Origin: Escherichia phage Av-05
Direction: 5' to 3' (one strand)
DNA: 64,000 nt
Sequence record: KM190144
A program made the translations under genes and the position numbers. Shown piece by piece: positions 3,643-60,551 of the stretch (positions are counted from its first letter, which is position 1; each line of letters opens with the position of its first letter). Under the pieces are notes generated by a model. The model was not told the DNA's origin, searched no databases, and was given only the letters and a program-made list of their open reading frames with translations.

Positions 3643-3643
3643 T

Positions 3644-36043: not shown

Positions 36044-36052
36044 TAGCAAAAT

Positions 36053-36077
36053 AAAAGGGAGCTAAAAGCTCCCTTTT
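36053..36077. terminator. Bidirectional Rho-independent terminator between convergent blocks
   Basis: GGGAGC-TAAAA-GCTCCC hairpin flanked by AAAA and TTTT. Confidence 0.6.
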
Positions 36078-36096
36078 ATATTAACAAATGCTACTT

Positions 36097-37269
36097 TTAG
36101 AAAGGAATATCTTCATCGTAGTCAAACTCAGGTGCTGGCGACTCCATATTCGGAATATCGCTGTTAGCACTGTTCAAAGGTTCCTTAGCATCCTGTTTGT
36201 TCTCTTGTTGTGTCTTCCCATCACCTTTAGATAAGAACTCGTAAAAAGGCTCTGACAGCGTTAGGTAAACATCTTTAGCGGCATTAAGAATGCCATCTTC
36301 TGTTAGTTTATCGATTTGATGATACAAAGCACAAGCTACTAAGATAGCATTACCCGCACTAGCACCCACCGCATTAGATTCCACATCTTTTCCTGTTCTC
36401 TCTGCCACAAAAGCCTTCATAGCTACTGTAGCGTTGTGAACCATCTTCGCGGCAGAGAGACGATCCTCGATCTTAAAACCAGCTTTAATGAGTTCCTTCA
36501 CACCGTTGATGCCGTGCCCACAAGCAACACCTAAAGCATCATAGCCGCCAGATGACTTCTTAGTCTGCCCAGCAGGACCGTAGGCTTTAAATCCACTTAA
36601 GACCGTACCATCACTTAGGTTAACAATCGCAGTGACACGACCACCTACTGCAACTTGCGACAATTGCTCATCTGTGAGGACAAGGTTTCCTTGACCATTC
36701 TTCTCATCATTAACTGTCACCACATTGCCAACGATTGCAGCAATCTCACCATAAATTTTAGTGCCTTTAACTTGGGCATTTGCAGGTGATTGGGTCGAAG
36801 ATTGCTGGCGAGGAGCACTTTGACCAACTTTGCTTTCATCAAGAATGCTGAAGGTCTTTCCGTTTAAAGTGCCGTTTGTATACGTTTTATCCACACTCTT
36901 AGTAATTTTGAGAGGGAAAGAAACAACCATCCCCGCCACAATATCTTTGTATCCAGAATCAAATTTCACCTGAATTTTGTCTGCATGGCTTGGGTGAAGT
37001 TTTTTCTCACCCATAGAAATCCACTCACCTTGGCTCTGTGGGTCAATAACGTTGTTATTATCGTCAACCTCTTGCATCAGGAAACTGATTGAGTGCGTGG
37101 CCTCAATAACTTTAGCTGGTTGCCCATTGCGAGCAGGGATATGGGTACGCCGGATACCATCTGCGTCAGCGTTTTTCACTGGACGAATATTAACATACTT
37201 GATAAAACCTTTCGCAAAATAATCAACTTTTCCGTTGATTGGGTTTTTAAATTCATTGATTACGCTCAT
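36097..37269 (-). CDS. Putative ssDNA-binding protein with SSB-like acidic C-terminal tail
   Basis: Ends PEFDYDEDIPF (bacterial SSB tails end DDDIPF); AAGGAG RBS before ATG 37269. Confidence 0.4.
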   Translation of the reverse strand: MSVINEFKNPINGKVDYFAKGFIKYVNIRPVKNADADGIRRTHIPARNGQPAKVIEATHSISFLMQEVDDNNNVIDPQSQGEWISMGEKKLHPSHADKIQVKFDSGYKDIVAGMVVSFPLKITKSVDKTYTNGTLNGKTFSILDESKVGQSAPRQQSSTQSPANAQVKGTKIYGEIAAIVGNVVTVNDEKNGQGNLVLTDEQLSQVAVGGRVTAIVNLSDGTVLSGFKAYGPAGQTKKSSGGYDALGVACGHGINGVKELIKAGFKIEDRLSAAKMVHNATVAMKAFVAERTGKDVESNAVGASAGNAILVACALYHQIDKLTEDGILNAAKDVYLTLSEPFYEFLSKGDGKTQQENKQDAKEPLNSANSDIPNMESPAPEFDYDEDIPF

Positions 37270-37282: not shown

Positions 37283-37624
37283 TTACTTAACGCCTTCAGC
37301 AGTTTCGTTTCCAACGCTCAACATCTTATCTACCACTAAATCTTCAACTTGATTTAGCAGGTTCAATGCAAAAGTGGAAGCAGTATTTAATTTCAACAAA
37401 TTGTTGCGGTGTCCTCGGATCCATGAAATTGCATCCTCTACCGTTTTATAGTTACCACTTTGGATGAGCTTTAGCATCTCTTCTCGAATTTCTTTCGACC
37501 CGATTACTGTTCCCATCTGGTGGCTGGCGCTGGACAAGTATACAATTGTTCCAAACTGCCCTTCATCAAGATCAAGAAAACGGATATCTTCTTTGCTTTC
37601 AGGTGTTTGTTTTTCTTCAGACAT
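37283..37624 (-). CDS. Hypothetical protein
   Basis: ORF in track, 113 aa. Confidence 0.4.
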   Translation of the reverse strand: MSEEKQTPESKEDIRFLDLDEGQFGTIVYLSSASHQMGTVIGSKEIREEMLKLIQSGNYKTVEDAISWIRGHRNNLLKLNTASTFALNLLNQVEDLVVDKMLSVGNETAEGVK

Positions 37625-37680
37625 GTCTATTCCTTACAAGGTTGGTGAGTATTACATCTTACACTATGCGTGTATGTATG

Positions 37681-37872
37681 TCAAGATGATTTTTTGTCTT
37701 TTTCTTGGAGAAAAGACAGGACAAATGCTGTAACCGCTATAATCAAAGGTGGCATGACAACAATTGCCCATGGTAGGTATAGAGGGGCAAGAACTAACCA
37801 CCAAGACCAGTCTATAATCTCACACAACTTCAACGCTATGAAGAGAATGCTTAACGCAGATAAAAATCTCAT
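37681..37872 (-). CDS. Small membrane protein
   Basis: 63 aa, two hydrophobic helices. Confidence 0.4.
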   Translation of the reverse strand: MRFLSALSILFIALKLCEIIDWSWWLVLAPLYLPWAIVVMPPLIIAVTAFVLSFLQEKDKKSS

Positions 37873-37879
37873 AGAGACC

Positions 37880-38161
37880 TCAAGAGAAAAACTCTTCTAT
37901 AACTTCCCAAACCCTTTCCGAATCCCCTCCTGAAAGGATACTCCAAATAACCATATCTTGATAGCCTTTCTTACACACATCCACTTGTCGAAATGCTTTA
38001 TGGAAACCCTCTGGACAACTATATTCCACAGGGAGCATATCCACATTATCTTCGAAATATTTAAGTAGCAATTCCTCTTCTAAAGAGGGATTGTTGCGAA
38101 GTTTCTCTTTGAGATTCTCAACAAGTTGTGCACCTGTTAACTTTTTGTTTGTCATGTCCAA
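37880..38161 (-). CDS. Hypothetical protein
   Basis: ORF in track, 93 aa. Confidence 0.4.
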   Translation of the reverse strand: MDMTNKKLTGAQLVENLKEKLRNNPSLEEELLLKYFEDNVDMLPVEYSCPEGFHKAFRQVDVCKKGYQDMVIWSILSGGDSERVWEVIEEFFS

Positions 38162-38508
38162 TCTCCATTTTTAATTTCTAGTACATCCACGCTCTCTGTT
38201 GGTACAAAACCAACAACAGGCTTCATACATTTCTCTTTTACATTGTCGAAAACATACATTTCATCCAATGCTTTTTGTGTTGTGCACGATTCCCAGTTTT
38301 TTGTGTACTCTTTGTAGCCATCCTCGTAAAGGAGAAAGTAGTTAATAGTTGTTGCCCCAAGAATAACGAACATAACAAAAGAGACAACAACGTGTTTCCA
38401 TGTTCCTTTGTACGATAAAATGAAAGCCCAAATAGAACACAACACATAAAACGATAAAGCAGGGAACCAGTTATTATGCACCTGGACCCACTCTAAAAAA
38501 GACATCAT
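38152..38508 (-). CDS. Membrane protein
   Basis: 118 aa, N-terminal hydrophobic helices. Confidence 0.4.
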   Translation of the reverse strand: MMSFLEWVQVHNNWFPALSFYVLCSIWAFILSYKGTWKHVVVSFVMFVILGATTINYFLLYEDGYKEYTKNWESCTTQKALDEMYVFDNVKEKCMKPVVGFVPTESVDVLEIKNGDWT

Positions 38509-38512
38509 GTTT

Positions 38513-38806
38513 CTATCCTTTATTCATATATCTCTTCCAGTCAGAAACAATGTTAGATGCAAGCTGATAAGTTCCGTTGGCATGCCCATCAGCTTTTGCA
38601 GCCGCTTTTACATATGGTAGGGCTTGTTCGAGAGCATCCACAATCAAGGGACACATTGCAATAGCCAAAGCTAGGTTCCCGTTTTCAGCGGTACAGATTG
38701 GGGAGTAGCTCTCTATTCCGTTTCCGTATTTCTCAAGACTACCTTTAACAATAACTTGGTTTTCACCGAACAAATCCTCGTGATGTTCCCACATTTCTTT
38801 GGTCAT
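38513..38806 (-). CDS. Hypothetical protein
   Basis: ORF in track, 97 aa. Confidence 0.4.
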   Translation of the reverse strand: MTKEMWEHHEDLFGENQVIVKGSLEKYGNGIESYSPICTAENGNLALAIAMCPLIVDALEQALPYVKAAAKADGHANGTYQLASNIVSDWKRYMNKG

Positions 38807-39028
38807 CTAGTTGTTCCTCAATTTTGCCATTGCATTATTAAATATTTTTTCGAGTTTCCTGTATTTAATCTTTTGTTTTATGCTTAACTTTTTTCTCTCT
38901 CCGGCAACCATTGCGCCATAATACTTAAATAAAACAACACGTCTATTGCTTACTTTTAATACTTGGGATTCCCTTTTCCTTGGCAGGAGAAGGATTTTAG
39001 CTTTGCGATTTTTCAACTTTACCTCCAA
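38807..39028 (-). CDS. Small basic protein
   Basis: 73 aa, K/R-rich. Confidence 0.35.
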   Translation of the reverse strand: MEVKLKNRKAKILLLPRKRESQVLKVSNRRVVLFKYYGAMVAGERKKLSIKQKIKYRKLEKIFNNAMAKLRNN

Positions 39029-39539
39029 TCATCTTATCCAGTTTTCGCCACATATCCCACACACCACCATTACCTATTGTGTTTTTCGATGGAGTCACAC
39101 AGGCGATAAATTCCAGATCAGTGCCCTTATTCATAAGATATTCAGATACCAACCCTGAAGCGATCAGTTTTATATTTTCAAGGTCTTCTTCAAGCTCCTG
39201 AATACGAGCCTGTGCTTTTTCAATTTCTTCCTTATGTCTTTTGTATTCTTGAAAAGCGTGCCAAGATTGTCCTTTATGAACACTTTCACAAATGGCCTCT
39301 ACTTGCTCTTTTGAGAGCACAGTGAGTGGTTGAGATGGGAAAATCATTATTTGTCCACTATCCCAATCGAATCCTGCATGTATAGATTGAACATCAACCG
39401 AAGGTGTTGCTCCAACAGTGCCTGGGGAATGAATAACGATTGTTACTTTAGTGTCTGGATCCAGATATTGTTTTCCACGTAGAGATGCTATGTGATTAAC
39501 CAAGTCTGTAAATTTTGAAAATTTCATGTAAAACCTCAA
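38997..39539 (-). CDS. Hypothetical protein
   Basis: ORF in track, 180 aa, C-terminal coiled-coil-like segment. Confidence 0.4.
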   Translation of the reverse strand: MRFYMKFSKFTDLVNHIASLRGKQYLDPDTKVTIVIHSPGTVGATPSVDVQSIHAGFDWDSGQIMIFPSQPLTVLSKEQVEAICESVHKGQSWHAFQEYKRHKEEIEKAQARIQELEEDLENIKLIASGLVSEYLMNKGTDLEFIACVTPSKNTIGNGGVWDMWRKLDKMIGGKVEKSQS

Positions 39540-39946
39540 TATGCAAAATAAACTGTTGCCACGCCGTTATAGTGGTCAAACGATACGGCGTTTACTTCAT
39601 AGCTGGCCGGGAGCTTCGAGCCGAGAACGTATCTGGGCCACGTATTCCATGGAGTTTCTATACCCTTACCATTTTTATATACGACACATCCAAGCGAACC
39701 TACAACCTCCCCAGAACGTTTGCCACATGTTACGAAACCTATATTTTTGTTGCTGTCATTAATAACTATTTGGTCATACCTGACTGATGCATTAGCAGCA
39801 CGCTGTGCCAGTTGAGTTGCGATATTCGTAGAGTTCGCAGCAGCCACAGTAGCCATGGTCGCGGCGGTAGATGCCATAATAGCCGTTGAAGCCTGCACCT
39901 GTTGGGTAATTGTCAGCAATGCCGCTGCAAAAATGATCTTCTTCAC
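39536..39946 (-). CDS. Secreted (signal-peptide) early protein
   Basis: MKKIIFAAALLTITQQVQA signal peptide with AxA-type cleavage site. Confidence 0.45.
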   Translation of the reverse strand: MKKIIFAAALLTITQQVQASTAIMASTAATMATVAAANSTNIATQLAQRAANASVRYDQIVINDSNKNIGFVTCGKRSGEVVGSLGCVVYKNGKGIETPWNTWPRYVLGSKLPASYEVNAVSFDHYNGVATVYFAY

Positions 39947-40011
39947 TTGTTATCTCCTTGATGAAGCTGGGCAACTAACCTATCACAGATATGCCAAATA
40001 TTTGTTAATGT

Positions 40012-40266
40012 TCATGCGGCATCGCTATGGTAGATAAAGTCTTCTTTGAACTGTTTGTATGTTAAGCAGTGCTCTAAATAACCCTCGTTAATTTTAATCA
40101 AAGGGAAGTCAGTAATCAAGACATGATTTAAACCAACGGCAGTAACAAGGTATTTCTGCTCTGGATCCCAAGACAATTTAGACTTGTACAAACAACCTTG
40201 TCTAATTTTAAAATCTTCCATATACCCACCCTTCGCAGTTGTGATCACGACATCCTTCAAAATCAT
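40012..40266 (-). CDS. Hypothetical protein
   Basis: ORF in track, 84 aa. Confidence 0.35.
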   Translation of the reverse strand: MILKDVVITTAKGGYMEDFKIRQGCLYKSKLSWDPEQKYLVTAVGLNHVLITDFPLIKINEGYLEHCLTYKQFKEDFIYHSDAA

Positions 40267-40981
40267 AAGGATTGTACTGCCAGGTTATTTTTCCGCAGTG
40301 CGGACAATTCCAGCGCACCTTCCCGCTTCGCGACTTCTTTCTTCTGTTCTGCTTTTTCAACCAGTCAGGCATGACCAAACCTGCGCCCTGAACCATTGTT
40401 CTGCGGTTAAAGTTATTGATATTGAACGTCAGGCGCTTTGCTGAATCAGCAATGGAAAATGGCAACCAAACTATTCCTGGTTCGTTTTTGTTGGCGACGC
40501 TAAAGATGGTCGCTTTACTGAAGTCATCTGTTGGCAATCCACCGTGTTGAAGCCAGTAAACATCGTTGCCGTTCCAGCTACCTTTTTTGTAGGCCACATA
40601 CGCAGTGCAATCTGGCTCAATCAGGTTTTCTGTAGGGATGTACTGGCAATCAACGTGCCACACAGCCATTGCATCAACGCTATCAGCGCAAACAGGCCGA
40701 TCGATATCTCGACCACAATTCCAGGCTTTTTGGGCTTCTTCCAGCGTGTAAACATGGGCGCGATCGATATCAGAACTGTAACCATTACCGTTATGGCAAT
40801 GGAATGAGGCGTTATTACCTACAGTTTCACGCAAGCACATCATGTAAAAACGATTTTTACACATCTTTAGCAACCACCTGTAGACAAGTGAGTAAACCCA
40901 TGATAAAAGCACCAATATGCCCAGCAAAAAGCAGCCCTTTATGAACAGGTAGCCCCGCCATAACCAACGCCACAGGAACAC
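40208..40981 (-). CDS. Cys-rich hypothetical protein (true start uncertain)
   Basis: C-terminal CPHCGKITWQ...CRDHNCEGW zinc-binding-like cluster; N-terminal part of track ORF may be non-coding. Confidence 0.35.
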   Translation of the reverse strand: MFLWRWLWRGYLFIKGCFLLGILVLLSWVYSLVYRWLLKMCKNRFYMMCLRETVGNNASFHCHNGNGYSSDIDRAHVYTLEEAQKAWNCGRDIDRPVCADSVDAMAVWHVDCQYIPTENLIEPDCTAYVAYKKGSWNGNDVYWLQHGGLPTDDFSKATIFSVANKNEPGIVWLPFSIADSAKRLTFNINNFNRRTMVQGAGLVMPDWLKKQNRRKKSRSGKVRWNCPHCGKITWQYNPYDFEGCRDHNCEGWVYGRF

Positions 40982-41195
40982 TTACAAGTGTGAACAGGAA
41001 TGCCCATAATAATTCTTTCATTATTTTCTCTTATGTTTTGACTTTCTACGTATCTTAGCTGCTCGTCGTGCCGCTGCAATACCTGTACGGCGTTTCGAGG
41101 TTGTGATGCCGTTGCCACCCTTCTCTGGCTCTAGAGTGCCTGTGGCATCCAAAAACGGATCGGATATGGTAATAAACTACATAATGCCACACGCA

Positions 41196-41654
41196 TTACT
41201 CACCTCCTTTGCGAAGCTCTGCGGCGAAATATACGGCTGCGGAAACAATAGCTGCATGTAGGTTTTCACCATCAGAAAATAAAGGATCCCCCTTAAGTGC
41301 ATTGACGATACTCTGATGATTTTTTGCCAACATCTCCACCCCCTGCGCCCGTACTTCAGCCAAGAAAGCATCTGTTGCCGGAGTTTCAGGAATCAGTCTC
41401 CTCATCAGTCCTATTGCATGATTGAACCCGAAATCTTCAGCAAGAGATACGTCATCCATATTGTCATTGTCGTCCTCAATATCCCGTGGTTCTGGAATTG
41501 CAGACTTTATTGCCGCATTCTCCGCAGCCAGCGCCGCAAGATTAGCTTCCAGTTCTGAGATTTTCTTTTTGTCATGGTATTTCTCTTCTAAAAGAGTTGC
41601 ACATTTAGCACCAAGGCGTTTGATTTCATCAATGTACACCGATTTCTCAGTCAT
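41196..41654 (-). CDS. Hypothetical protein
   Basis: ORF in track, 152 aa, coiled-coil-like. Confidence 0.4.
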   Translation of the reverse strand: MTEKSVYIDEIKRLGAKCATLLEEKYHDKKKISELEANLAALAAENAAIKSAIPEPRDIEDDNDNMDDVSLAEDFGFNHAIGLMRRLIPETPATDAFLAEVRAQGVEMLAKNHQSIVNALKGDPLFSDGENLHAAIVSAAVYFAAELRKGGE

Positions 41655-41874
41655 GGCTAATTACCTCTCCCTTCAACAACTTGACATTAATTTTGAGTTC
41701 TGCAATTTGACACATAGCGTCAATATTTGTGTCTTCTAACTTCTTAATTTCATCAAGAAGTGCCAGCACAAGCTGGGGCGTGACCATAGCACGGTAGTCA
41801 GTTATTTCTTGATGAGTACCACCATCTTTTGCTATCTCTGCTAACTTACGTAATTCTTGGTAGTCAATTTTCAT
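41647..41874 (-). CDS. Hypothetical protein
   Basis: Track ORF 41647-41994 trimmed to internal Met MKIDYQELRK to avoid overlap. Confidence 0.35.
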   Translation of the reverse strand: MKIDYQELRKLAEIAKDGGTHQEITDYRAMVTPQLVLALLDEIKKLEDTNIDAMCQIAELKINVKLLKGEVISHD

Positions 41875-42250
41875 AACTTGATAAGTCCTGTGTTGTTTTA
41901 TTGACTGCATTATATGCCTCTTTGAGCACCCAGTCAACAGCATCTTTCCATGCTCCGGTTTCGACGGGTGGATTCTCACGCTTAACCTGCTCATAGAAGC
42001 GCACTGCTTTAATCAATCCTTCTAAGGTTACAGGTGTGGTGTATAACGCCTGAATTTCGTAGTTTGGTCTGTCGTTACAATCTTCTTTTGTTGGGACATA
42101 TTTCCAGTCACCAGTCCACAGATTTCCCTGTTTTACATAACGATAGCGCCAAGCAACTGGTTGTTGGGTTGCTGTTTTAAGGCTTGGTGACGAAGGTGGG
42201 AGCGAAACATTAGCCATTTCCGAGATGACAGGTTGATAACCATTGCTCAT
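41864..42250 (-). CDS. Hypothetical protein
   Basis: ORF in track, 128 aa. Confidence 0.4.
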   Translation of the reverse strand: MSNGYQPVISEMANVSLPPSSPSLKTATQQPVAWRYRYVKQGNLWTGDWKYVPTKEDCNDRPNYEIQALYTTPVTLEGLIKAVRFYEQVKRENPPVETGAWKDAVDWVLKEAYNAVNKTTQDLSSYEN

Positions 42251-42425
42251 CTAAATCTCCTCCTGCCTCATATGCCACTTGTAACCAATACATAAATGTT
42301 TCAATAGAAACACAACCACAATCCACATCAATCTGGTCATGTTGTTGTTCCAACCACTGCTGAAAACGTGATTTTTGAGTGTCATTCTCTGGCTGTTCTT
42401 TTATCATTATCACCCCCATCGGCAA
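42210..42425 (-). CDS. Hypothetical protein
   Basis: ORF in track, 71 aa. Confidence 0.35.
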   Translation of the reverse strand: MPMGVIMIKEQPENDTQKSRFQQWLEQQHDQIDVDCGCVSIETFMYWLQVAYEAGGDLDEQWLSTCHLGNG

Positions 42426-42489
42426 ACTGAGTACACTGCAAAGGCTACAGCCATTACAACCCCTACCGTTGTGAATGCTTCAGGCCAAG

Positions 42490-43152
42490 TCATTGATTCA
42501 TCCCCTTCTTCTTGAGCATGGCGGCACGGCAAGCGTTCCAGCCATCAACATAATCAAACGTATTACTATCGTCTGGCTCGATTTCATCCGGTACTGCCAA
42601 TGTCGGCTGGGCGGCAACATTGGCAAAGGCTGCACGCAACCCTGTCTTAATTTCCTCTACCTCATCAGCGCCTAGCGATGAATCTGACAGTGCATGATGG
42701 AATGCGTATGCCATGTCGTCGTTTACTGTTATCGGTTCCACTTTCTGTACTGTAAGTGTTGGCGGCACATGATACAACGGGATTACACGACGCGGGTCTG
42801 TGCCTTTACCTGGTGGGTACGGCATTATCCAGCCTAAACCAATCTGATCAACATCCCGCAACTCCTCTTCGTCCGTCCATCCCACCGGTTCTGCTCTCAA
42901 CTCCACCTGTGCATTAGGGGAGGTGTAGAGCGGGATTCCTTTCCTCCCACCAGAAAATTCATTGCGAGCGTTATACTCACGACCATCTGCGTCCTCACAC
43001 ATCCATGCTACAGGCTTTGTCTCCAGCACTGCCAAAGCAATCCGTGCCAGTTCTTGCGCTTCTTCTGCTGGCAGTACAACGTTGCTACCAAGTCCGTATG
43101 TTTCACGCCACTGCTTGATTGTCAGAAGGCGTTCTTTGGTAAGAATACTCAT
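42490..43152 (-). CDS. Hypothetical protein
   Basis: ORF in track, 220 aa. Confidence 0.4.
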   Translation of the reverse strand: MSILTKERLLTIKQWRETYGLGSNVVLPAEEAQELARIALAVLETKPVAWMCEDADGREYNARNEFSGGRKGIPLYTSPNAQVELRAEPVGWTDEEELRDVDQIGLGWIMPYPPGKGTDPRRVIPLYHVPPTLTVQKVEPITVNDDMAYAFHHALSDSSLGADEVEEIKTGLRAAFANVAAQPTLAVPDEIEPDDSNTFDYVDGWNACRAAMLKKKGMNQ

Positions 43153-43154
43153 AT

Positions 43155-43418
43155 CTATTTCACCTTAATCTCAACATTTCTCACATCTAGCTCTACGGGG
43201 AGTTCTGCCTTTCCAGTCAGTGCTAATGCAAGATTTTCTGGAGTAATAATGACAGTTATTGTTTTTCCTCTCTCCAGACGAATAGCCATTCTTATCTTGT
43301 CATCATCATCACCTGTGTTAGGTCGAGTAATTGATATTTGTCCGTTCATATATTTATCCTCTGTTATTAACATGCCAATCCTTAACAAATGGTTATGTGA
43401 ATGAAAGAAAGCAGCCAA
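43155..43418 (-). CDS. Hypothetical protein
   Basis: ORF in track, 87 aa. Confidence 0.4.
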   Translation of the reverse strand: MAAFFHSHNHLLRIGMLITEDKYMNGQISITRPNTGDDDDKIRMAIRLERGKTITVIITPENLALALTGKAELPVELDVRNVEIKVK

Positions 43419-43525
43419 AGAATTGACTCAATAGCTGCCCAACCAATAACTGCACAAACAACACCAAGAAACAAGAAAAAACCAGGACCTGGCAAATTAT
43501 TGAACATCCTCACTCCCCTTTGTTA

Positions 43526-43831
43526 TTAGCACGCTGTAAAAGCAAGTGGTGAAGTGTACACTTCAATTTTTCCGTTATCAATAGGCCATTCTCCATCTTT
43601 GATATAGTCGCTTGTACCATCGACTCGCTGCTCTGCGATATGGAAAGCACCAATCGGTTTTGCTTCTAATGCATTTAATGCGATCTTGGCAATCTCCAAA
43701 TCAAGAGATACCATATCAAAAATCTTCTTATACTCATCCCCAGCCTCACCAACACGCTGTTGGAGGTCTTTCAGATGGTCAACATTAGAGCGCACATGCT
43801 TAAGTAGCTTCTCTTTTGTAAATCTTTTCAT
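43526..43831 (-). CDS. Hypothetical protein
   Basis: ORF in track, 101 aa. Confidence 0.4.
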   Translation of the reverse strand: MKRFTKEKLLKHVRSNVDHLKDLQQRVGEAGDEYKKIFDMVSLDLEIAKIALNALEAKPIGAFHIAEQRVDGTSDYIKDGEWPIDNGKIEVYTSPLAFTAC

Positions 43832-43839
43832 AAGTCACC

Positions 43840-44103
43840 TTATCCTGCTGTACTTGCCACTACCGAGGGAAATGTAATACTCTCTTCAAACAAAGCGCCA
43901 AGGTTTTCAACAGCCATGCAAAAATCAAATGCCGTCCCAGAGTCCAGTGCCTTAAAAATTTCATCTTCACGGCGTAAATCGTACAGATAAATATGCCTAT
44001 CCCCTATGGTATAAAAACCTATCCTTTTTGGGGATGGGTAACGATCAATGATGCTTTGAAGGTCTCTTAACCACTTCTTTTCTTCTTTTGTCAGTTTTGG
44101 CAT
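43840..44103 (-). CDS. Hypothetical protein
   Basis: ORF in track, 87 aa. Confidence 0.4.
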   Translation of the reverse strand: MPKLTKEEKKWLRDLQSIIDRYPSPKRIGFYTIGDRHIYLYDLRREDEIFKALDSGTAFDFCMAVENLGALFEESITFPSVVASTAG

Positions 44104-44105
44104 AG

Positions 44106-44597
44106 TTACTCTTCCCTTTTGAATAATACATCCCGTAATACAGGAACGCTTTTATCCATACTTGCTTCAAGTTGCTTACTGTCCGCACTTGCCCATGCAT
44201 ACACAACCATTTTAGCAACGTCGCTCAAAGTTTCATACTTATTTCTTAAAGCTCCTTGCTCCTTCTTGAAAAAATCTATATTGTCTTGTACCCATTGCAA
44301 GCGTTCTTTGTTCTCATGGCAAGTATTTTTAAACATTTCTCTACTATAGGGACTTGTCTGGTTAAAAGGCAATCTTTTATCTAGCCCCGCCTTTTCGAAA
44401 TCATCATGCAGCATGTCTAGTAGGTCATCTCTGTAGCCGGACAAATGATTCACATTACACCAATCATATAAATTAGCACACAAACCGCAGTCACGAGAGA
44501 AAATATCAGAGTCTGGTGCTCCTCTTTTTACCCAAGCATCGTAAGAAAGGTAAAAACTTTGTAATAAGACATGTAGCTTTGTAATATCAAAATTCAT
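44106..44597 (-). CDS. Hypothetical protein
   Basis: ORF in track, 163 aa. Confidence 0.4.
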   Translation of the reverse strand: MNFDITKLHVLLQSFYLSYDAWVKRGAPDSDIFSRDCGLCANLYDWCNVNHLSGYRDDLLDMLHDDFEKAGLDKRLPFNQTSPYSREMFKNTCHENKERLQWVQDNIDFFKKEQGALRNKYETLSDVAKMVVYAWASADSKQLEASMDKSVPVLRDVLFKREE

Positions 44598-45055
44598 TGC
44601 TCGAAATCTCCATTGCGAAGTTGCTCTGCATAAAGAAGGGCTTGTTTTCCCGCATAGATGATGCTTTCTTCTTGCTCCTGCTCTCCGATACGGATTGTGA
44701 GCATACCGTACATATGAACACCTTGAGCCATCATCTCTGTGGAGAACTTCTTTGTGGCTTCCAAACTGGGCATCAAAGGTGACTGATCTGCTGGGGTATA
44801 TGCATCAGAGATATCAGATTGTTCCCCATCAAAAACATAACAACTCTCACGAATGAACTTCTTTAGGAGTGCATTTTCTGATGCTACGTCAATGAACATA
44901 CCCTCCAGTTTCTTGTAGTCATCGTAAGAAACCATGTCTGTACAGAAGGAACTCCCTTGTACAGGGGGTGATAAATAGTCACTTGGTATTGCATGTATCT
45001 TTACATTTCTCATAGAAATTCTCCACAAAGTGTCAGGTAGTGAAATGATACACAA
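44594..45055 (-). CDS. Hypothetical protein
   Basis: ORF in track, 153 aa. Confidence 0.4.
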   Translation of the reverse strand: MCIISLPDTLWRISMRNVKIHAIPSDYLSPPVQGSSFCTDMVSYDDYKKLEGMFIDVASENALLKKFIRESCYVFDGEQSDISDAYTPADQSPLMPSLEATKKFSTEMMAQGVHMYGMLTIRIGEQEQEESIIYAGKQALLYAEQLRNGDFEQ

Positions 45056-45079
45056 ACAGATTGCCTATAGCAAGTGTTC

Positions 45080-45451
45080 TTAATTAGCCAATTCAGCATC
45101 CAACGACATTATATACTCAGGTAGCTTTCGAATGTTCTCATACAGCACAATCTCTCCGTGTGTCAATGGCCTGATTTCTTTATCCACACCAACATTATTA
45201 TGGTAATCCCAATCTGCATCGACATGGACGAAGACCAGCGTTCCTCTATTGCCAGTCTTAGCGGCCTTTCTTACGATAATCTCTCCGTCTATTGAAGGTA
45301 GGCATCTTTTAAAGAACTTGTTTAAAAGTTTTTGTTGAATTGCTTCTGCCAAGATCATTTTGTCTTGGCTATCTATGATTCTTTTAATTTCAGAGTTGTT
45401 TACTTCAACATCAATAAGTTGTGTTGTTGTCTGGGTTCCTTTTACTTTCAT
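45080..45451 (-). CDS. Hypothetical protein
   Basis: Track ORF 45080-45544 trimmed to Met MKVKGTQ (45451) so it does not overlap the HNH gene. Confidence 0.35.
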   Translation of the reverse strand: MKVKGTQTTTQLIDVEVNNSEIKRIIDSQDKMILAEAIQQKLLNKFFKRCLPSIDGEIIVRKAAKTGNRGTLVFVHVDADWDYHNNVGVDKEIRPLTHGEIVLYENIRKLPEYIMSLDAELAN

Positions 45452-45461: not shown

Positions 45462-46100
45462 TTACTCTGATATAGGGTCTGTTTTTGATCTTCTTTTCTG
45501 GACTTTCTTGGGTCTTCCTGTGATATGTGACCATGAGTATCCATTATTTAAAGAAGATATTGTATTTCTGGAAACTCCGAATAGTTCCGCAATAGCTTTG
45601 TGTGTTATCCCACAATCAATAAGCCGTACAATCTCTAAAACTTTCTCCTTTGTAAGGACAGATAAATGATAATCATCACCAAATTTTTGGATTCTCCCCA
45701 TACTATAAGCCACTGTATTGTTATGGCTATAGGTACACCACTCAAGATTTTCAACTCTATTATTATGTCTGTTACCATCTATGTGGTTTATAATTGGAAC
45801 TCCTAGCACAGTTTTTCTGCATTCTTTCTGCAATTCTGGAGAAGGAGGCTCTTTAAAAGCCTCCGCTACAAGTCTATGGACTGAAAAACTTTTCCCTGAA
45901 TCTTTACCCCTTTTGTACAAGCACACGCTCGGATAGCATTGTGGAGATAAATTTTCACTTTTAGTTTTTAAATATTTCCACATTCCTGATTTAAAAGATC
46001 TTACATTTCCATAATTACTTACTTGATAATCAGGATACCCTACAATATCCTTCCAAATTTCCTCTACTTCATCAGTGGGAATCTGCCCATGTGTATCCAC
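45462..46100 (-). CDS. Free-standing HNH homing endonuclease (NUMOD4-like N-terminus)
   Basis: GYPDYQVSNYGNVRS motif and NHIDGNRHNNRVENLEW HNH motif; GTG start overlaps 3' end of polymerase exon 3. Confidence 0.65.
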   Translation of the reverse strand: MDTHGQIPTDEVEEIWKDIVGYPDYQVSNYGNVRSFKSGMWKYLKTKSENLSPQCYPSVCLYKRGKDSGKSFSVHRLVAEAFKEPPSPELQKECRKTVLGVPIINHIDGNRHNNRVENLEWCTYSHNNTVAYSMGRIQKFGDDYHLSVLTKEKVLEIVRLIDCGITHKAIAELFGVSRNTISSLNNGYSWSHITGRPKKVQKRRSKTDPISE

Positions 46101-46371
46101 AAAGATATTCTCCTGTAATTAAAACGGGAAGCCCCATTATCTTAGACGCTTTTTCTACACATTTTGTTGCAAGCTCTCCTACTGGGCAATGCAGTATCCT
46201 GTATTTCCCATACACATCAGGTTCAACAATAACTTTACCTGCTTTCACATAATGTCCGTCGAAACGATGGCCTTTTTCAAGCATCATATCTACATAGCTT
46301 TGTGCAGCCTCTAAGTTAGAATGCTCCGTTATTGATTTAAATCTTTCCGGTACTTGTACCTGTATCTCATC
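46072..46371 (-). CDS. DNA polymerase (family A), exon 3
   Basis: Begins DEIQV (completes motif C as ...YYH|DEIQV) and ends GLPVLITGEYLCGYTWADSH, like Pol I/T7 pol C-terminus. Confidence 0.6.
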   Translation of the reverse strand, partial: DEIQVQVPERFKSITEHSNLEAAQSYVDMMLEKGHRFDGHYVKAGKVIVEPDVYGKYRILHCPVGELATKCVEKASKIMGLPVLITGEYLCGYTWADSH

Positions 46372-47214
46372 CACTAGTTCAAGGAGTTCGCTACTCTCCC
46401 CCGCACCGTTACGTGCATAGCCACAAGATTTCTCCTGTGGGTCAGACTATATCATAACCCTTTTTCAAGGGTTCCTCCCGTTTGGACCGCGCTTGCTGGC
46501 CTACTCTACTCGCTTCTTCACATCAGATGAAGCTGATGCTATGCTTTCGATAGTCGTTGAACGTCACTTACCAAGTATAGTCTTTAGAGATATGCACCCA
46601 CAATCTCCGTTGTTTAATTCCTTTTACGGATGGGTAGGGGTATCCGAGATCTCTAATCTCGCATTGCCTTAGCCCTGACTGTAGCAATTCACAAATCTCT
46701 CTCACATCTTTTTCTGTGAGAATGGCATTCGCATTGTTTTCACCAATAGGTATAACACGTAATCCTGTATCGTAAGCATGTTTTATATTGCTGCCATGTG
46801 TCCCCCACTCAAGATTCCACGCTGCGTTATTAAGTTTGTTTCCATCTTTATGATTAACGCTGGTGAATCTTTCTGGATCTGGATTAGGCACAAAACATTC
46901 TGCCACCATCCGATGTATGGCTTTCGTACAGGACTTACCGTCTATCCTTATAATTGTACACAGATATCCCCTCCCATTATCAAATACCTGCAAGGGAAGT
47001 TTATCTCTTTTTGAAAGAGGCGTGGAACCATCTTCAAAAACTGTATACCCATGGTAATCTTTTGCTTTTACCATTTTACTATACCTCTTTAAGTTTTCGC
47101 TGCGGATTGGCATATTGTCCTTATAACACAATACATTATAAGAATCAACTTAGCTTTCCCGACAATTAGAGAGGTTTTCGACATGCATTACTGCATGAAG
47201 CCACAATGTTATTT
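46372..47214 (-). mobile_element. Group-I-intron-like insertion 2 in DNA polymerase gene, with HNH ORF
   Basis: Splits motif C; minus strand has R-like GTTCAACGACTA and S-like ATGATATAGTC elements; 5' exon ends U, insertion ends G. Confidence 0.55.
46568..47131 (-). CDS. Intron-encoded HNH homing endonuclease
   Basis: VNHKDGNKLNNAAWNLEWGTHGSN HNH motif; 187 aa inside insertion 2. Confidence 0.65.
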   Translation of the reverse strand: MCYKDNMPIRSENLKRYSKMVKAKDYHGYTVFEDGSTPLSKRDKLPLQVFDNGRGYLCTIIRIDGKSCTKAIHRMVAECFVPNPDPERFTSVNHKDGNKLNNAAWNLEWGTHGSNIKHAYDTGLRVIPIGENNANAILTEKDVREICELLQSGLRQCEIRDLGYPYPSVKGIKQRRLWVHISKDYTW

Positions 47215-47547
47215 ATGGTAGTAGATAACCCTTCTGACACCCTGGTCGTACCATCCCCGTTTCACCAATTCCCAATGGAACAGGACTCCCATGAGGTCAA
47301 ACAATGAAGCACCACCGTTTTGTTGGTAAGCATTCAGCAGAGAATGTTTAGAACGAGTCCAAATTTTACGCCCATCCATACCTGGAATATAGCGTCTCCC
47401 ATTTGCCTCCCAGAATTTTTCTAACCACTCCCTACGCATTTTCAACCCGAAGTTACTATCCCAGAATGCGTCTATTACAGCCTGTGCTCTATTAAGGGGG
47501 ATACCCAGCATTGCGGCTATCTTAGGAGCTTGTGCTCCATACATGAT
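47215..47547 (-). CDS. DNA polymerase (family A), exon 2
   Basis: IMYGAQAPKIAAMLG...YIPGMDGRKIWTRSKHSLLNAYQQNGGASL parallels T7 gp5 region FLYGAG...IKGLDGRKVHVRSPHAALNTLLQSAG. Confidence 0.6.
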
Positions 47548-48281
47548 CATATTGTTCAACATGGCTCGCTACACCATGCCCGTCCTTTTAGGAACTGCTA
47601 CATATTTCTATGCAGATCAGACTATATCTTCATCCTTTTCAGGATGCCCACCGCTTCGGCAGTCTGAAAGACTGGAGGTTTCCCTCACCGCTTGGCCCTA
47701 CGCCTTTCGGCTAGTCGTTGAAGTTTCGAATGCTTCCCAACATTTATGTTCTATTTGATGGCATTTTTTACAAAGTAATTCAAAATTACTTATTTCGTTA
47801 TTCGTCCTGTCATGGTCAATATGATGAACGCACCATTCATCTTTACCTGCATAAAGAAGATCTTTATTACATCTATTACAGTATCTTCTCTGTTCCTTTA
47901 TGACAGGGGATAACTTACGAAACATCGATATGCCATTTTTATAAAATTTGGACAATTTCCCACGAGGCTGCCCACCACCTTTTCCTATGCCAACTCTGTC
48001 AAGCCTATTTTCTCTTTCGGCCTTTCTGCGTCTATATTCTCTGGTTTTTATCTTTGAATATTCTCTTCTACAACCTTCAGAGAGACATACTTTTTGATTT
48101 TTACCAGTTTTAACACATTGTTCACCGCAGATTATACAACAAAATGTGCCCATATTCTCCCTCCTTTTGTAAGAGGGAAGCATTCGCTTACCTGCTGATT
48201 ATCTTCGACATAACTCGGTCAGATTTCCCAGCAATTCAATGGGTGCACCTTACAAATTACTTTGTAAGGGGGCTATCATTA
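47548..48281 (-). mobile_element. Group-I-intron-like insertion 1 in DNA polymerase gene, with HNH ORF
   Basis: Splits motif B region; R-like CTTCAACGACTA and S-like GAAGATATAGTC on minus strand; TAATGATAG stops in all frames right after exon 1. Confidence 0.55.
47698..48183 (-). CDS. Intron-encoded HNH endonuclease (Cys-rich zinc-finger N-terminus)
   Basis: CVHHIDHDRTNNEISNFELLCKKCHQIEH HNH motif; GGAGGGAG RBS. Confidence 0.65.
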   Translation of the reverse strand: MLPSYKRRENMGTFCCIICGEQCVKTGKNQKVCLSEGCRREYSKIKTREYRRRKAERENRLDRVGIGKGGGQPRGKLSKFYKNGISMFRKLSPVIKEQRRYCNRCNKDLLYAGKDEWCVHHIDHDRTNNEISNFELLCKKCHQIEHKCWEAFETSTTSRKA

Positions 48282-50318: not shown

Positions 50319-50513
50319 ACTCCTCCTATTCAAGATGGGCTTGACTGTATCGTCGCCCATCTCTTAGTTGGTTATAGATTATGTGGAAAACTACCTATTT
50401 TTGATTTATGTTTCTTTGCCAAAGGGCTTCTCTTGGCGGGAATGTATCCCTCAAGCCCCTTGGCAACACGAATAGCTAACTCATCATATTTTACATGTAT
50501 CCTCTTTTTTCTC

Positions 50514-52514: not shown

Positions 52515-52665
52515 CTCTTCTCCTTAGAAGGGTTTGGCAACTACAGCCATATACCAGCCATTACACACAGATATGCCACCTGAGATACAGTAGCCTTTTC
52601 TAAACCAAGTGTTTAGTTTTGATTCTAATTCTGAAATACTGGTTCCTGTGAGAATCTTGACATTT

Positions 52666-53406: not shown

Positions 53407-53433
53407 AGCTGGGCCTTTTAAGTTACGCTAAAA

Positions 53434-53655
53434 TCAGTGCAATACTGCATGAACAGGGCTTCCATCAGCCCCGTAAGGAATGTCTCGTACCTGGGCCAGC
53501 CTTTTCACTAAAGTATACACCAGCCAACCTTCAGCTTCATGTTGTCCTGCAATATCATAACCATCATCAAGAAGTTCAGCCAGTTTGTTCTCTACTTCTT
53601 CTCTTTTTGTTCTGCTAATTTTGAACTCAATGAGTTTAACAGTGTTTTTAACCAT
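53434..53655 (-). CDS. Hypothetical protein
   Basis: ORF in track, 73 aa. Confidence 0.35.
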   Translation of the reverse strand: MVKNTVKLIEFKISRTKREEVENKLAELLDDGYDIAGQHEAEGWLVYTLVKRLAQVRDIPYGADGSPVHAVLH

Positions 53656-53659
53656 AATT

Positions 53660-54663: not shown

Positions 54664-54701
54664 AACCTTTTTCTGCTTTTTGGTGTGGTGGGAAAAACCA
54701 C

Positions 54702-55248: not shown

Positions 55249-55250
55249 AA

Positions 55251-55676: not shown

Positions 55677-55686
55677 CAGCTATCTC

Positions 55687-59976: not shown

Positions 59977-59996
59977 TCAATACCTCTATGAACTAA

Positions 59997-60515: not shown

Positions 60516-60534
60516 AACTAACTCCAGACAAATA

Positions 60535-60551
60535 AGCCCCATGAAGGGGCT
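60535..60551 (-). terminator. Terminator-like hairpin after 60557-60901
   Basis: Minus strand AAGCCCC-TTCAT-GGGGCTT then ATTTGT; weak U-tract. Confidence 0.35.

What the first reader, a model, noticed from the sequence alone, without database searches (positions are those of the whole stretch)
37283..45451. Block of about 22 small early ORFs including a secreted protein and membrane proteins
Between the SSB-like gene and the HNH/polymerase region lie tightly packed, often overlapping small ORFs (60-260 aa) with no recognisable enzymatic motifs. One has a clear signal peptide (39536-39946), several are membrane proteins and one has a Cys-rich C-terminus (40208-40981). Such blocks in virulent phages are where host-takeover and anti-defence proteins are usually found.
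Basis: inference. Interest (0 to 1): 0.4.

Follow-up and report, generated by a model that had tools for sequence, protein, structure and literature searches.

The report
Swappable accessory-gene island in lytic phage
The block is a real run of about 23 small genes in a lytic rV5-like coliphage, but most of it is a fast-changing cargo slot filled with function-unknown accessory genes that are traded with temperate phages (lambda-like prophages, P1/P7), which is a known kind of thing and only moderately interesting.

Summary
Observation confirmed: 37283-45451 holds 23 supported minus-strand genes (41-220 aa), one doubtful 27-aa ORF and one frameshifted remnant. They are tightly packed or overlapping. 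One product has a Sec signal peptide, four are small membrane proteins, and one has a zinc ribbon.

The window is an Avunavirus-like (Vequintavirinae, rV5-like) lytic myovirus. The block is not a uniform native takeover operon. It is a hypervariable slot between conserved anchor genes: 45080-45451 upstream, and 38508-37283 plus the 390-aa "SSB-like" gene downstream. About 17 cargo genes lie between the anchors, and at least 14 have homologues in temperate phages (lambdoid exo-xis/"ea" region, P22 ea genes, the P7 hea operon, P1-like plasmids). Nucleotide identity reaches 96.7%, and a sister phage's copy is 99.8% identical to P7 upf87.6.

Five closely related genomes differ gene by gene in this slot; one carries an extra Dam-like methylase. 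dN/dS of 0.03-0.31 shows the genes are maintained.

Function stays unknown. There are no defence-family hits, and two confident structure models have no known fold relative. An anti-defence or host-takeover role is plausible but untested, and "early" timing is not shown.

The parts
45080..45451 (-). g01, 123 aa: upstream anchor gene (homologue of PVP-SE1 gp21, annotated there as rV5 gp216-like), conserved across Vequintavirinae-type phages
   Evidence: phrog_6273 E 1e-47. 38-50% aa identity in FFH2, PVP-SE1, 4MG and Klebsiella-type contigs, always upstream of the variable slot. dN/dS 0.18.
44594..45013 (-). g02, 139 aa: Ead/Ea22-type C-terminal-domain protein (cargo)
   Evidence: phrog_492/10746/368. 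tblastn hits to P22 EaE and to Stx-phage ead/Ea22-like genes. dN/dS 0.06.
44106..44597 (-). g03, 163 aa: carries an uncharacterised ~100-aa helical domain (FY..W..GAP...GLC...PF...R..W) plus a long C-terminal helix (cargo)
43840..44103 (-). g04, 87 aa (cargo; absent from relative L022)
   Evidence: phrog_1714 E 3e-40. Homologues in P1-like CMS-2020a and in Salmonella phages. Missing in L022.
43526..43831 (-). g05, 101 aa: shares the N-terminal module of lambdoid DUF551-type proteins (cargo)
   Evidence: phrog_660/5117/60. 83% aa identity over half its length to the N-terminus of the 611R6 DUF551 protein.
43382..43507 (-). g06, 41 aa small membrane protein (cargo; absent from L022)
   Evidence: Hydrophobic over residues 4-41. 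95-98% aa identity in 18-1-2 and L026, dN/dS 0.20.
43155..43373 (-). g07, 72 aa (cargo, lambdoid)
   Evidence: phrog_1222 E 7e-34. 68-71% aa identity to small genes next to DUF551 genes in E. coli prophages.
42490..43152 (-). g08, 220 aa 'EaA'-type modular protein: N-terminal module shared with DUF551 proteins, variable middle (cargo)
   Evidence: phrog_60/660/12449. The first 130 nt are 90-95% identical to P1, P7, Stx and 611R6 genes. Only 70-74% aa identity to the 18-1-2 and L026 versions, and replaced in L022. GC 0.51 against 0.40 for the phage. No Pfam DUF551 hit.
42410..42493 (-). Possible 27-aa hydrophobic ORF, unsupported
   Evidence: ATG with an AAGG RBS and one hydrophobic stretch. 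No family hit, and not called in relatives.
42210..42407 (-). g10, 65 aa acidic protein (cargo)
   Evidence: phrog_924. 58-66% aa identity in P7 and a P1-like plasmid. dN/dS 0.03.
41864..42250 (-). g11, 128 aa (cargo); contains an internal sigma-70-like promoter at 41937-41909
   Evidence: phrog_660 E 1e-32. The promoter-like site TTGACT-17-TATAAT scores 11/12, and its hexamers are identical in L022 and 18-1-2.
41647..41874 (-). g12, 75 aa coiled-coil, Ea22 N-terminal-like (cargo)
   Evidence: phrog_250/368. Pfam Ead_Ea22 at 20 bits, below the cutoff of 27. 31-33% aa identity to the P7 Upf88.3 N-terminus.
41196..41654 (-). g13, 152 aa Ead/Ea22-like family protein (cargo; allele differs between relatives)
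   Evidence: Pfam PF13935 at 30 bits, above the cutoff of 27. 212 nt are 94.3% identical to Stx2a-phage ead genes. Only 48-68% aa identity to the 18-1-2, L022 and L026 alleles.
41021..41196 (-). Frameshifted remnant of a small basic prophage gene (WP_001261532-like)
   Evidence: 72-73% nt match to a gene downstream of ead/Ea22 in E. coli prophages. The N- and C-terminal halves lie in different frames.
40857..41021 (-). g14, 54 aa two-helix membrane protein
   Evidence: Hydrophobic throughout. 100% aa identity in L026 despite 5 nt differences, all synonymous. No family hit.
40208..40864 (-). g15, 218 aa HK620 hkaG / P7 Upf87.6-family protein: alpha/beta N-domain, basic linker, C-terminal zinc ribbon (cargo)
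40012..40221 (-). g16, 69 aa (cargo)
   Evidence: phrog_20019 E 1e-39. 100% aa identity in L026. Absent from 18-1-2.
39536..39946 (-). g17, 136 aa Sec-exported protein (cargo; single-gene presence/absence polymorphism)
   Evidence: Signal peptide with VQA|ST cleavage site. phrog_8805 E 2e-76. 74% aa and 78% nt identity to a gene of E. coli prophages and P1-like plasmids that lies between the recombination genes and ead/xis/int. 13 of 17 differences from L026 are at third codon positions. Absent from L022 and 18-1-2.
38997..39527 (-). g18, 176 aa: N-domain (one phage record annotates the matching region as 'pmgU domain protein') plus a coiled coil (cargo)
   Evidence: phrog_6026 E 4e-52 and phrog_368. 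62% aa identity to ead/Ea22-like genes that follow the exported-protein gene in prophages.
38807..39016 (-). g19, 69 aa very basic protein (pI 11.4) (cargo)
   Evidence: phrog_1380 E 1e-21. 54% aa identity to a P1-like plasmid gene. TTG start with a GGAGG RBS.
38513..38806 (-). g20, 97 aa; patchily present in Vequintavirinae-type phages
   Evidence: No PHROG match. tblastn hits in Klebsiella phage KP13-16 (54%) and in an IMG/VR contig (41%). Absent from 18-1-2 and L026.
38152..38508 (-). g21, 118 aa two-TM membrane protein; start of the downstream conserved anchor set (PVP-SE1 gp33 homologue)
   Evidence: phrog_7941 E 3e-46. TM windows at residues 14-33 and 37-61. 31-39% aa identity in PVP-SE1, 4MG and Klebsiella-type contigs, in conserved order. 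Lost in 18-1-2 and L026.
37880..38155 (-). g22, 91 aa DUF7238 protein (anchor set)
   Evidence: Pfam PF23885 at 38.5 bits, above the cutoff of 27. 57-65% aa identity across relatives. dN/dS 0.09.
37681..37872 (-). g23, 63 aa two-TM membrane protein (anchor set)
   Evidence: phrog_1374 E 2e-19. TM windows. 57-74% aa identity across relatives.
37283..37624 (-). g24, 113 aa (anchor set), preceded by a sigma-70-like promoter at 37684-37656
   Evidence: phrog_7310 E 5e-51. 52-65% aa identity across relatives. In the promoter-like site TTGACA-17-TAAGAT, both hexamer positions are kept (TTGACA unchanged; TAAGAT becomes TAATAT in 18-1-2) while the spacer diverges.
36097..37269 (-). Downstream boundary gene, 390 aa (PVP-SE1 gp39 homologue, annotated there as rV5 gp209-like); 'SSB-like' only by its C-terminal DEDIPF tip
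   Evidence: phrog_4477 E 2e-155, function unknown. No SSB Pfam or PDB hit. Followed by a bidirectional terminator hairpin at 36051-36079.
45462..46100 (-). Upstream boundary: free-standing HNH homing endonuclease, itself a presence/absence polymorphism
   Evidence: NUMOD4, HNH_3 and HTH domains. Present in L022; absent from 18-1-2, L023 and L026.

Best explanation
The interval is a hypervariable accessory-gene island (a cargo slot) at the promoter-distal end of the leftward replication-gene cluster of an Avunavirus-like, rV5-type lytic myovirus.

Shown:
1. It contains 23 real, co-oriented small genes under purifying selection.
2. Both ends are conserved Vequintavirinae genes. These are g01 upstream, and g21-g24 plus the 390-aa gp209-like gene downstream. 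They keep their order in distant relatives (PVP-SE1, 4MG, Klebsiella-type phages).
3. The roughly 17 genes between the anchors are absent from those relatives. At least 14 of them instead have homologues in the non-essential early accessory regions of temperate enterobacterial phages: the lambdoid pL operon between the recombination genes and xis/int, the P22 ea genes, the P7 C1-controlled hea operon, and P1-like plasmids. DNA identity reaches 96.7% in the window. In the sister phage 18-1-2, the copy is 99.8% identical to P7 upf87.6.
4. Five genomes with 93-96% identical backbones differ here by whole-gene gains, losses and allele replacements. These include an extra Dam-family methyltransferase and an HNH endonuclease.

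Inferred:
- Cargo is exchanged by recombination with resident prophages or P1-type plasmids during infection. The likely substrates are shared modules such as the EaA/DUF551-type N-terminal module and the Ea22 coiled coil.
- The genes are co-transcribed with the replication cluster, with help from internal sigma-70-like promoters.
- The products are dispensable modulators of the host. The cytoplasmic ones are Ea22-type coiled-coil adaptors, the zinc-ribbon protein and a very basic protein. The envelope-directed ones are four small membrane proteins and one Sec-exported protein, which could act in superinfection exclusion or envelope remodelling.
- These genes are kept because they improve infection in particular hosts, possibly against host or prophage defences. 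No biochemical function could be assigned to any of them.
For: Identity of the phage.

Gene reality: PHROG matches, dN/dS of 0.03-0.31, and all-synonymous differences in g14.

Anchors versus cargo.

Temperate-phage homology and context:
- pieces of 39900-43600 occur in 1304 of 5426 complete E. coli genomes.
- context in 611R6, an E. coli prophage, P7 and a P1-like plasmid.
- the exported-protein gene lies between the anti-RecBCD/kil/cIII genes and ead/xis/int.
- no single phage covers more than 30% of the central block, so the block is a mosaic.

Repeated exchange: the window's hkaG-like allele is 96.0-96.7% identical to every copy examined, temperate or from 18-1-2. The 18-1-2 allele differs from P7's by 1 nt in 630.

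Gene-by-gene flux among close relatives: 18-1-2, the L022/L023 scaffolds, and the L026-L028 scaffolds, which include the Dam-like MTase insertion.

A decayed cargo gene lies inside the block. GC content is raised in three cargo genes.

Transcription: no strong terminator on the minus strand before 36051-36079, and the promoter-like hexamers are conserved.

The general phenomenon of temperate-virulent gene flow is documented in PMC8136500. The exo-xis genes of lambda are early, non-essential and affect host replication and the lysis-lysogeny decision (PMC10834534).
Against: - No functional evidence exists for any gene. There are no matches to defence models, NCBIfam or solved structures. The two good structure models gave no informative fold match.
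- Timing and transcription are inferred only from consensus scans, whose totals do not exceed shuffled controls.
- The direction of transfer (temperate to virulent) is inferred from distribution, not from a phylogeny.
- Several cargo genes (g03, g04, g16, g20) also occur in virulent phages or have no detected temperate homologue.
- Vequintavirinae tested in the BASEL study were exceptionally sensitive to restriction-modification systems. This argues against broadly effective anti-restriction cargo in the subfamily.
Confidence: 0.8

Rival explanations
1. One reading: this is a native early operon of a virulent phage whose small proteins shut down the host and inhibit its defence systems.
For: - The phage belongs to a lytic subfamily.
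- The genes are small, dense and of unknown function.
- The same slot in PVP-SE1 carries NMN adenylyltransferase and PnuC. NAD+ reconstitution is a published counter-defence strategy (bioRxiv 10.1101/2024.02.11.579819).
- One haplotype carries an orphan Dam-like methyltransferase.
- Homologous exo-xis genes of lambda are expressed very early.
Against: - Most of the interior is not native. It is shared with temperate phages and varies among sister genomes.
- No anti-defence or defence family was detected with the libraries at hand.
- The position is distal to the replication genes, and timing is unknown.
- Vequintavirinae were found to be highly RM-sensitive.
Confidence: 0.3
2. Assembly artefact: prophage or P1-plasmid reads from the host were mis-joined into the phage contig, so the lambdoid-type genes are not really in this phage.
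For: - Up to 96.7% identity to E. coli prophage and plasmid DNA.
- The four GenBank relatives come from one study, and one of their genes is 99.8% identical to P7.
Against: - The same junctions recur in independent metagenome scaffolds from different samples. Examples are g14-hkaG-g16-exported protein-g18-g19 followed by Vequintavirinae anchors and tail-fibre genes. One of these is a 137.9-kb scaffold, and 16 contigs carry the exported-protein gene.
- The cargo genes show about the same 4-7% divergence from these relatives as the backbone does, with mostly synonymous changes.
- Junctions fall at gene boundaries, with overlapping start and stop codons.
Confidence: 0.03
3. The phage is in fact temperate or plasmid-like, and the block is its own lysogeny-associated 'ea' region doing what it does in lambda: tuning the lysis-lysogeny decision.
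For: - Presence of Ead/Ea22-like genes; lambda Ea22 is reported as pro-lysogenic.
- Homologues in P1/P7 are under C1 repressor control.
Against: - The backbone is Vequintavirinae.
- In this locus the genes lie between DNA polymerase/HNH and tail-fibre genes. No exo, xis, int, repressor or partition genes are adjacent.
- Relatives of 134-138 kb are classified with lytic rV5-like phages.
- I did not screen the whole genome for integrase.
Confidence: 0.04

Closest known systems
Lambdoid exo-xis / 'ea' region (lambda ea22, Stx-phage ead/Ea22-like genes, P22 eaA-eaI, HK620 hka genes)
   Same: It shares gene families: Ead/Ea22-like (Pfam PF13935 for g13), EaA-type N-terminal module proteins, the hkaG-like zinc-ribbon protein, the exported protein, and small neighbouring ORFs. 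The genes are small, dense, co-oriented, dispensable-looking and highly mosaic. DNA identity reaches 94-97%.
   Different: The genomic setting differs. There is no pL/N, exo/bet/gam, xis/int or repressor. Here the genes sit in a lytic 130-kb-class myovirus, between replication genes and the tail-fibre cluster. Gene order differs: hkaG lies downstream of Ea22 here but upstream of it in 611R6 and prophages. The lambda Ea22 C-terminal domain is not detectable in g13.
P7/P1 variable region between pap and hot/IS903 (the P7 'hea' operon: upf87.4-upf91.7)
   Same: Homologues of Upf87.6 (hkaG-like), Upf88.3 (Ead-like) and Upf89.5 N-terminal module proteins are present. P1-like plasmids also carry homologues of g04, g10, g17-g19.
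   Different: In P7 the operon has a predicted C1 operator. No such control element was looked for or seen here, and the content overlaps only partly, at most 30%.
Hypervariable accessory regions of large lytic phages, including the same slot in other Vequintavirinae-type phages
   Same: Conserved flanking anchors enclose lineage-specific cargo. The slot runs from g01 to the g21/g22-type anchor set. It measures 4.6-5.5 kb in PVP-SE1, 4MG and Klebsiella-type contigs, about 1.2 kb in FFH2, and 6.6 kb here. Homing endonucleases are nearby.
   Different: The cargo here is mainly from the temperate-phage pool. In PVP-SE1 it includes NAD+ salvage genes (NMNAT, PnuC).
[quoted passage not shown] 2021, PMC8136500)
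   Same: Highly similar genes occur in otherwise unrelated phages of different lifestyles, and a large virulent genome is the recipient.
   Different: That study reports enrichment for energetics, nucleotide metabolism, packaging and virion functions. Here the transferred genes are function-unknown early accessory genes.

Membership tests
Ead/Ea22-like protein family (Pfam PF13935) | Match to the family HMM above the gathering score | tested here: met
   g13 (41196-41654) scores 30 bits against a cutoff of 27, E 9e-7. g12 (41647-41874) scores only 20 bits and fails. g02 and g18 join only through PHROG families 368/492.
Lambda Ea22 proper (solved C-terminal domain) | Sequence similarity to the lambda Ea22 C-terminal domain deposited in the PDB | tested here: not met
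   phmmer of g13 and g02 against all PDB chains at E<=10 gives no Ea22 hit. The literature says Stx-type Ea22 CTDs differ from lambda's.
Lambdoid exo-xis region (as a locus) | Location in the pL operon between the recombination genes (exo/bet/gam or equivalents) and xis/int | tested here: not met
   Homologues in prophage L007 and phage 611R6 do lie there. In the window the genes lie between DNA polymerase/HNH and the gp209-like gene.
DUF551 (the label given to relatives of g05/g08) | Match to the Pfam DUF551 domain | tested here: not met
   No Pfam hit for 42490-43152 or 43526-43831 at E<=0.01. Only the N-terminal module upstream of DUF551 is shared.
Protein tyrosine phosphatase (P7 record's note for Upf87.6) | Conserved catalytic Cys in an HCX5R(S/T) loop | tested here: not met
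   The Cys of 'FHCHNGNGY' is replaced by R, A or G in many of the 45 family members, and no Arg follows at +6. There is no phosphatase Pfam, PDB or fold match.
Zinc ribbon (C4) | Two CxxC-type knuckles, invariant across the family, on short beta-hairpins | tested here: met
   C180, C183, C198 and C203 (211-aa numbering) are invariant in 45 sequences. The model shows short strands at 176-179 and 186-189. Metal binding itself was not tested.
Sec-dependent exported protein | N-terminal positive n-region, hydrophobic h-region, AXA-type cleavage site | tested here: met
   MKK / IIFAAALLTIT / QQVQA|ST by inspection. The feature is conserved full-length in 50+ homologues, one named 'Prophage exported protein' by a source. 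No dedicated predictor was available, and export was not tested.
Known anti-phage defence proteins (PADLOC-DB) | HMM match to any defence-system component | tested here: not met
   0 families for 20 proteins at E<=0.01.
Known anti-defence proteins (Ocr, Ard, Acr, Gad/Tad, NARP and others) | HMM match to curated anti-defence families | not testable with these tools
   No anti-defence HMM library was available. Pfam, NCBIfam and PDB searches gave no such names.
   No SSB Pfam or PDB sequence match. The C-terminus ...FDYDEDIPF resembles the E. coli SSB tip. The fold was not modelled.
Vequintavirinae / Avunavirus-like phage (for the window as a whole) | Nucleotide similarity and synteny with classified members | tested here: met
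   95.7% identity over 97% of 46000-64000 to records classified as Vequintavirinae; Avunavirus. Anchor synteny with PVP-SE1 and FFH2.

The most novel reading that the evidence does not exclude
The accessory genes shared here between a lytic rV5-like phage and lambdoid or P1-type temperate phages may be lifestyle-independent host-manipulation or counter-defence effectors. The main candidates are three:
- the hkaG/Upf87.6-family zinc-ribbon protein (confident model, no detectable fold relative);
- the ~100-aa 'GLC...PF...RxxW' helical domain of g03 (775 sequence clusters, no Pfam family);
- the Ead/Ea22-type coiled-coil proteins.

If so, their retention under purifying selection in an obligately lytic phage would mean that the 'pro-lysogenic' phenotype described for lambda Ea22 is a by-product of a more general activity on the host.
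Probability: 0.3. Interest if true: 0.6.

Novelty: new member of a known kind. Interest (0 to 1): 0.35.

Why it matters
It gives a concrete, well-resolved example of ongoing gene traffic between temperate coliphages (Stx and lambdoid prophages, P1/P7 plasmids) and a lytic phage type that is often proposed for therapy. This matters for judging how 'clean' therapeutic phages stay.

It also narrows down candidates for experiments. A handful of widespread dark-matter families are kept under selection in both lifestyles: the hkaG/Upf87.6 family, the g03 domain, the exported protein and the Ea22-type proteins. That makes them reasonable candidates for host-interaction or counter-defence screens. Natural presence/absence variants (window, 18-1-2, L022, L026) already exist and could serve as isogenic-like comparisons.

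Tried and rejected
- Pfam, PHROGs, NCBIfam and PADLOC scans of all genes gave only Ead_Ea22, DUF7238 and 'unknown function' PHROGs.
- Sequence searches against the PDB for g02, g13, g15, g08, g17 and the SSB-like gene, plus a profile search for the g03 family, found nothing meaningful.
- The AFDB Foldseek library was unavailable.
- Repeat search found no repeated boundary sequences or arrays in the block.
- Rfam found nothing inside the block.
- An IMG/VR scan with g01 returned only distant relatives.
- A word-indexed protein search for g03 found one hit only; the exhaustive search was needed.
- Literature searches for hkaG and for rV5 transcriptomics gave nothing useful.
- The P7 note 'putative tyrosine phosphatase' was rejected on non-conservation of the Cys.
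- My first hkaG allele comparison was mis-registered for the window sequence and was redone.
- dN/dS values for g08 and g11 are invalid because of indels and were ignored.

Full report
**What the window is.** The 8.2-kb interval and its flanks match four GenBank phage records: Escherichia phages 18-1-2, 19-1-2, 24-2-1 and vB_EcoM_TH18. These are classified as Vequintavirinae; Avunavirus. The replication genes at 46000-64000 are 95.7% identical over 97% of their length. The interval itself is only 65% covered, at 92.8%. More distant Vequintavirinae-type phages (Klebsiella, Salmonella, Cronobacter) match the polymerase region at about 75%. So the window comes from an rV5-like large myovirus, a group handled in the literature as lytic phages.

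GC skew and the ORF map show a convergent junction. Structural genes run rightward to 36043. A 13-bp-stem bidirectional hairpin sits at 36051-36079. Everything from 64000 down to 36097 is on the minus strand.

**Checking the observation.** All substantial ORFs in 37283-45451 are on the minus strand. I refined the starts using RBS, homologue lengths and family alignments. This gives 23 supported genes of 41-220 aa, one unsupported 27-aa ORF and one frameshifted remnant. Gaps between genes run from -41 to +82 nt, apart from the remnant.

- 20 of the 22 ORFs scanned match PHROG families, all labelled 'unknown function'.
- Pfam gives only Ead_Ea22 for 41196-41654 and DUF7238 for 37880-38155.
- 13 cleanly alignable ORFs have dN/dS of 0.03-0.31 against 18-1-2.
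- The 54-aa ORF 40857-41021 has no family hit, but it differs from a metagenomic relative by five substitutions, all synonymous.

These are genes, not chance ORFs.

- 39536-39946 starts with a textbook Sec signal peptide (MKKIIFAAALLTITQQVQA|ST). It belongs to a family found in E. coli prophages, and one source names a member 'Prophage exported protein'.
- Four products are small membrane proteins.
- The Cys-rich C-terminus of the 40208 gene is a zinc ribbon, with four Cys invariant in 45 homologues.
- One correction is needed. That gene starts at 40864 (MCKNRFY...), not 40981. The hydrophobic 'N-terminus' is the out-of-frame shadow of the separate membrane gene 40857-41021.

**Anatomy: anchors and cargo.** I ran tblastn of the flanking proteins against the phage collection, and a local comparison with fetched loci. 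Two sets of genes are conserved, in the same order, in PVP-SE1, 4MG, Klebsiella-type contigs and partly FFH2:

- g01 (45080-45451) on the upstream side.
- The set 38152-38508, 37880-38155, 37681-37872, 37283-37624 plus the 390-aa gene 36097-37269 on the downstream side.

None of the genes from 44594-45013 down to 38807-39016 occurs in those relatives. The distance between the anchors is about 1.2 kb in FFH2, 4.6-5.5 kb in PVP-SE1, 4MG and Klebsiella-type contigs, and 6.6 kb here. In PVP-SE1 the slot holds, among others, an NMN adenylyltransferase and a PnuC transporter.

**Where the cargo comes from.** The DNA of the central part matches temperate phages, not lytic ones.

- The hits include Stx-converting phages, P1, P7, SJ46, IME10 (gene hkaG) and Lederbergvirus 611R6.
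- Pieces of 39900-43600 occur in 1304 of 5426 complete E. coli genomes, on chromosomes and on P1-like plasmids.
- In 611R6 and in prophages, the homologues lie in the leftward early operon between N/recombination genes and xis/int.
- In P7 they lie in an operon with a predicted C1 operator, between pap and IS903.
- The exported-protein gene and the gene after it are 78% identical to a pair found in prophages and P1-like plasmids. In the prophage examined, that pair sits between anti-RecBCD/kil/cIII and ead/xis/int.

At the protein level, at least 14 of the roughly 17 cargo genes have temperate-phage homologues. No single phage covers more than 30% of the central block, and gene order differs from the temperate loci. 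The block is therefore a patchwork, not one transferred segment. A frameshifted remnant of a small prophage gene fills the only sizeable gap, 41021-41196. Three cargo genes have raised GC: 0.46-0.51 against 0.40 for the phage.

**Evidence for ongoing exchange and gene-by-gene flux.**

- The hkaG-like gene of the window is 96.0-96.7% identical to the copies in 18-1-2, 611R6, an E. coli prophage, P7 and a P1-like plasmid. It is no closer to its sister phage than to temperate phages. The 18-1-2 copy differs from P7 upf87.6 by 1 nt in 630.
- Relative to 18-1-2, the window has an extra 2 kb (38190-40225), a different Ea22 allele and an HNH gene.
- Metagenome scaffold L022 (58.6 kb, 96% backbone identity) lacks g04, g06, most of the EaA-type gene, g13, three quarters of the hkaG-like gene and the exported-protein gene.
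- Scaffold L026 (137.9 kb, 95%) shares the window's g14-hkaG-g16-exported protein-g18-g19 run. It lacks the HNH gene, g20 and g21. It carries an additional Dam-family methyltransferase (PF02086, DPPY motif) between g05 and g06.

These independent assemblies reproduce the junctions between lambdoid-type genes and the Vequintavirinae backbone. That disposes of an assembly-chimera explanation.

**Function.** Nothing could be assigned.

- PADLOC, NCBIfam and PDB sequence searches were empty.
- Published work on the lambda exo-xis region reports early expression, dispensability, effects on host replication and on the lysis-lysogeny decision, and a tetrameric coiled-coil Ea22. This is the only functional lead, and g13 does not share the lambda Ea22 C-terminal domain.

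**How it most likely works.** Shown: this is a bounded, hypervariable slot whose cargo is shared and exchanged with temperate phages, and the cargo is maintained by selection.

Inferred:

- Exchange happens by recombination with resident prophages or P1-type plasmids during infection, using shared modules. The mechanism is discussed in general terms in PMC8136500.
- The genes are transcribed with the replication cluster, since no convincing terminator occurs before 36051. Two sigma-70-like sites may contribute. Their hexamers are conserved in relatives: 41937-41909, and 37684-37656 where the spacer diverges but the hexamers persist.
- The products modulate the host from the cytoplasm and the envelope.

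A counter-defence role is suggested only by association: NAD+ salvage genes in PVP-SE1's slot, a Dam-like methylase in L026, and the NARP literature. It is weakened by the reported RM sensitivity of Vequintavirinae.

**Verdict.** The locus is a new example of known kinds of things: an accessory island in a large lytic phage, and temperate-virulent gene flow. It is of moderate interest. Its main value is that it points to a few widespread dark-matter families and to natural presence/absence variants that make them testable.

Noticed in passing
window 46424-47224 (minus strand): Two sub-threshold Rfam matches to group I introns: 46961-47224 (41 bits, E 9e-8) and 46424-46728 (24.5 bits). They lie in the split DNA-polymerase region, with an HNH ORF (46568-47131) between or inside them. 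This suggests an intron-interrupted polymerase gene.
   Followed up: partly
window 45462-46100: A free-standing NUMOD4/HNH/HTH homing endonuclease abuts g01 with a 10-nt gap. It is present in the window and in L022 but absent from 18-1-2, L023 and L026, so it is a mobile-endonuclease polymorphism at the edge of the slot.
   Followed up: yes
window 36097-37269: The 'SSB-like' gene has no SSB domain by Pfam or PDB sequence search and belongs to a function-unknown PHROG. It ends in ...FDYDEDIPF, which resembles the E. coli SSB C-terminal tip that recruits replication and repair proteins.
   Followed up: partly
L026 2687-3577 (inserted at the equivalent of window 43525-43535): A close relative (137.9-kb metagenome scaffold) carries a 296-aa Dam-family N6-adenine methyltransferase (PF02086, DPPY motif) inside the same slot. 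It is absent from the window.
   Followed up: partly
L001 7100-7729 vs L004 5328-5957: The hkaG-like gene of Escherichia phage 18-1-2 differs from phage P7 upf87.6 by a single nucleotide in 630. This implies a very recent exchange between a P1/P7-type element and that lytic phage, or contamination of those records.
   Followed up: partly
window 37656-37684 and 41909-41937 (minus strand): Two sigma-70-like promoter matches have conserved hexamers in relatives. The first lies in the only clean intergenic spacer (56 nt) before g24 and the gp209-like gene. There the hexamer positions persist with one -10 change in 18-1-2 while the spacer has diverged.
   Followed up: partly
L009 (PVP-SE1) 2756-7268: The syntenic slot of Salmonella phage PVP-SE1 holds an NMN adenylyltransferase and a PnuC-type NMN transporter among small unknown genes. 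A promoter is annotated upstream of the block and a bidirectional terminator after the gp209-like gene.
   Followed up: no
window 41021-41196: A frameshifted remnant of a small, very basic prophage gene (WP_001261532-like) lies immediately after the Ea22-like gene, as in E. coli prophages. This is a sign of cargo decay.
   Followed up: yes
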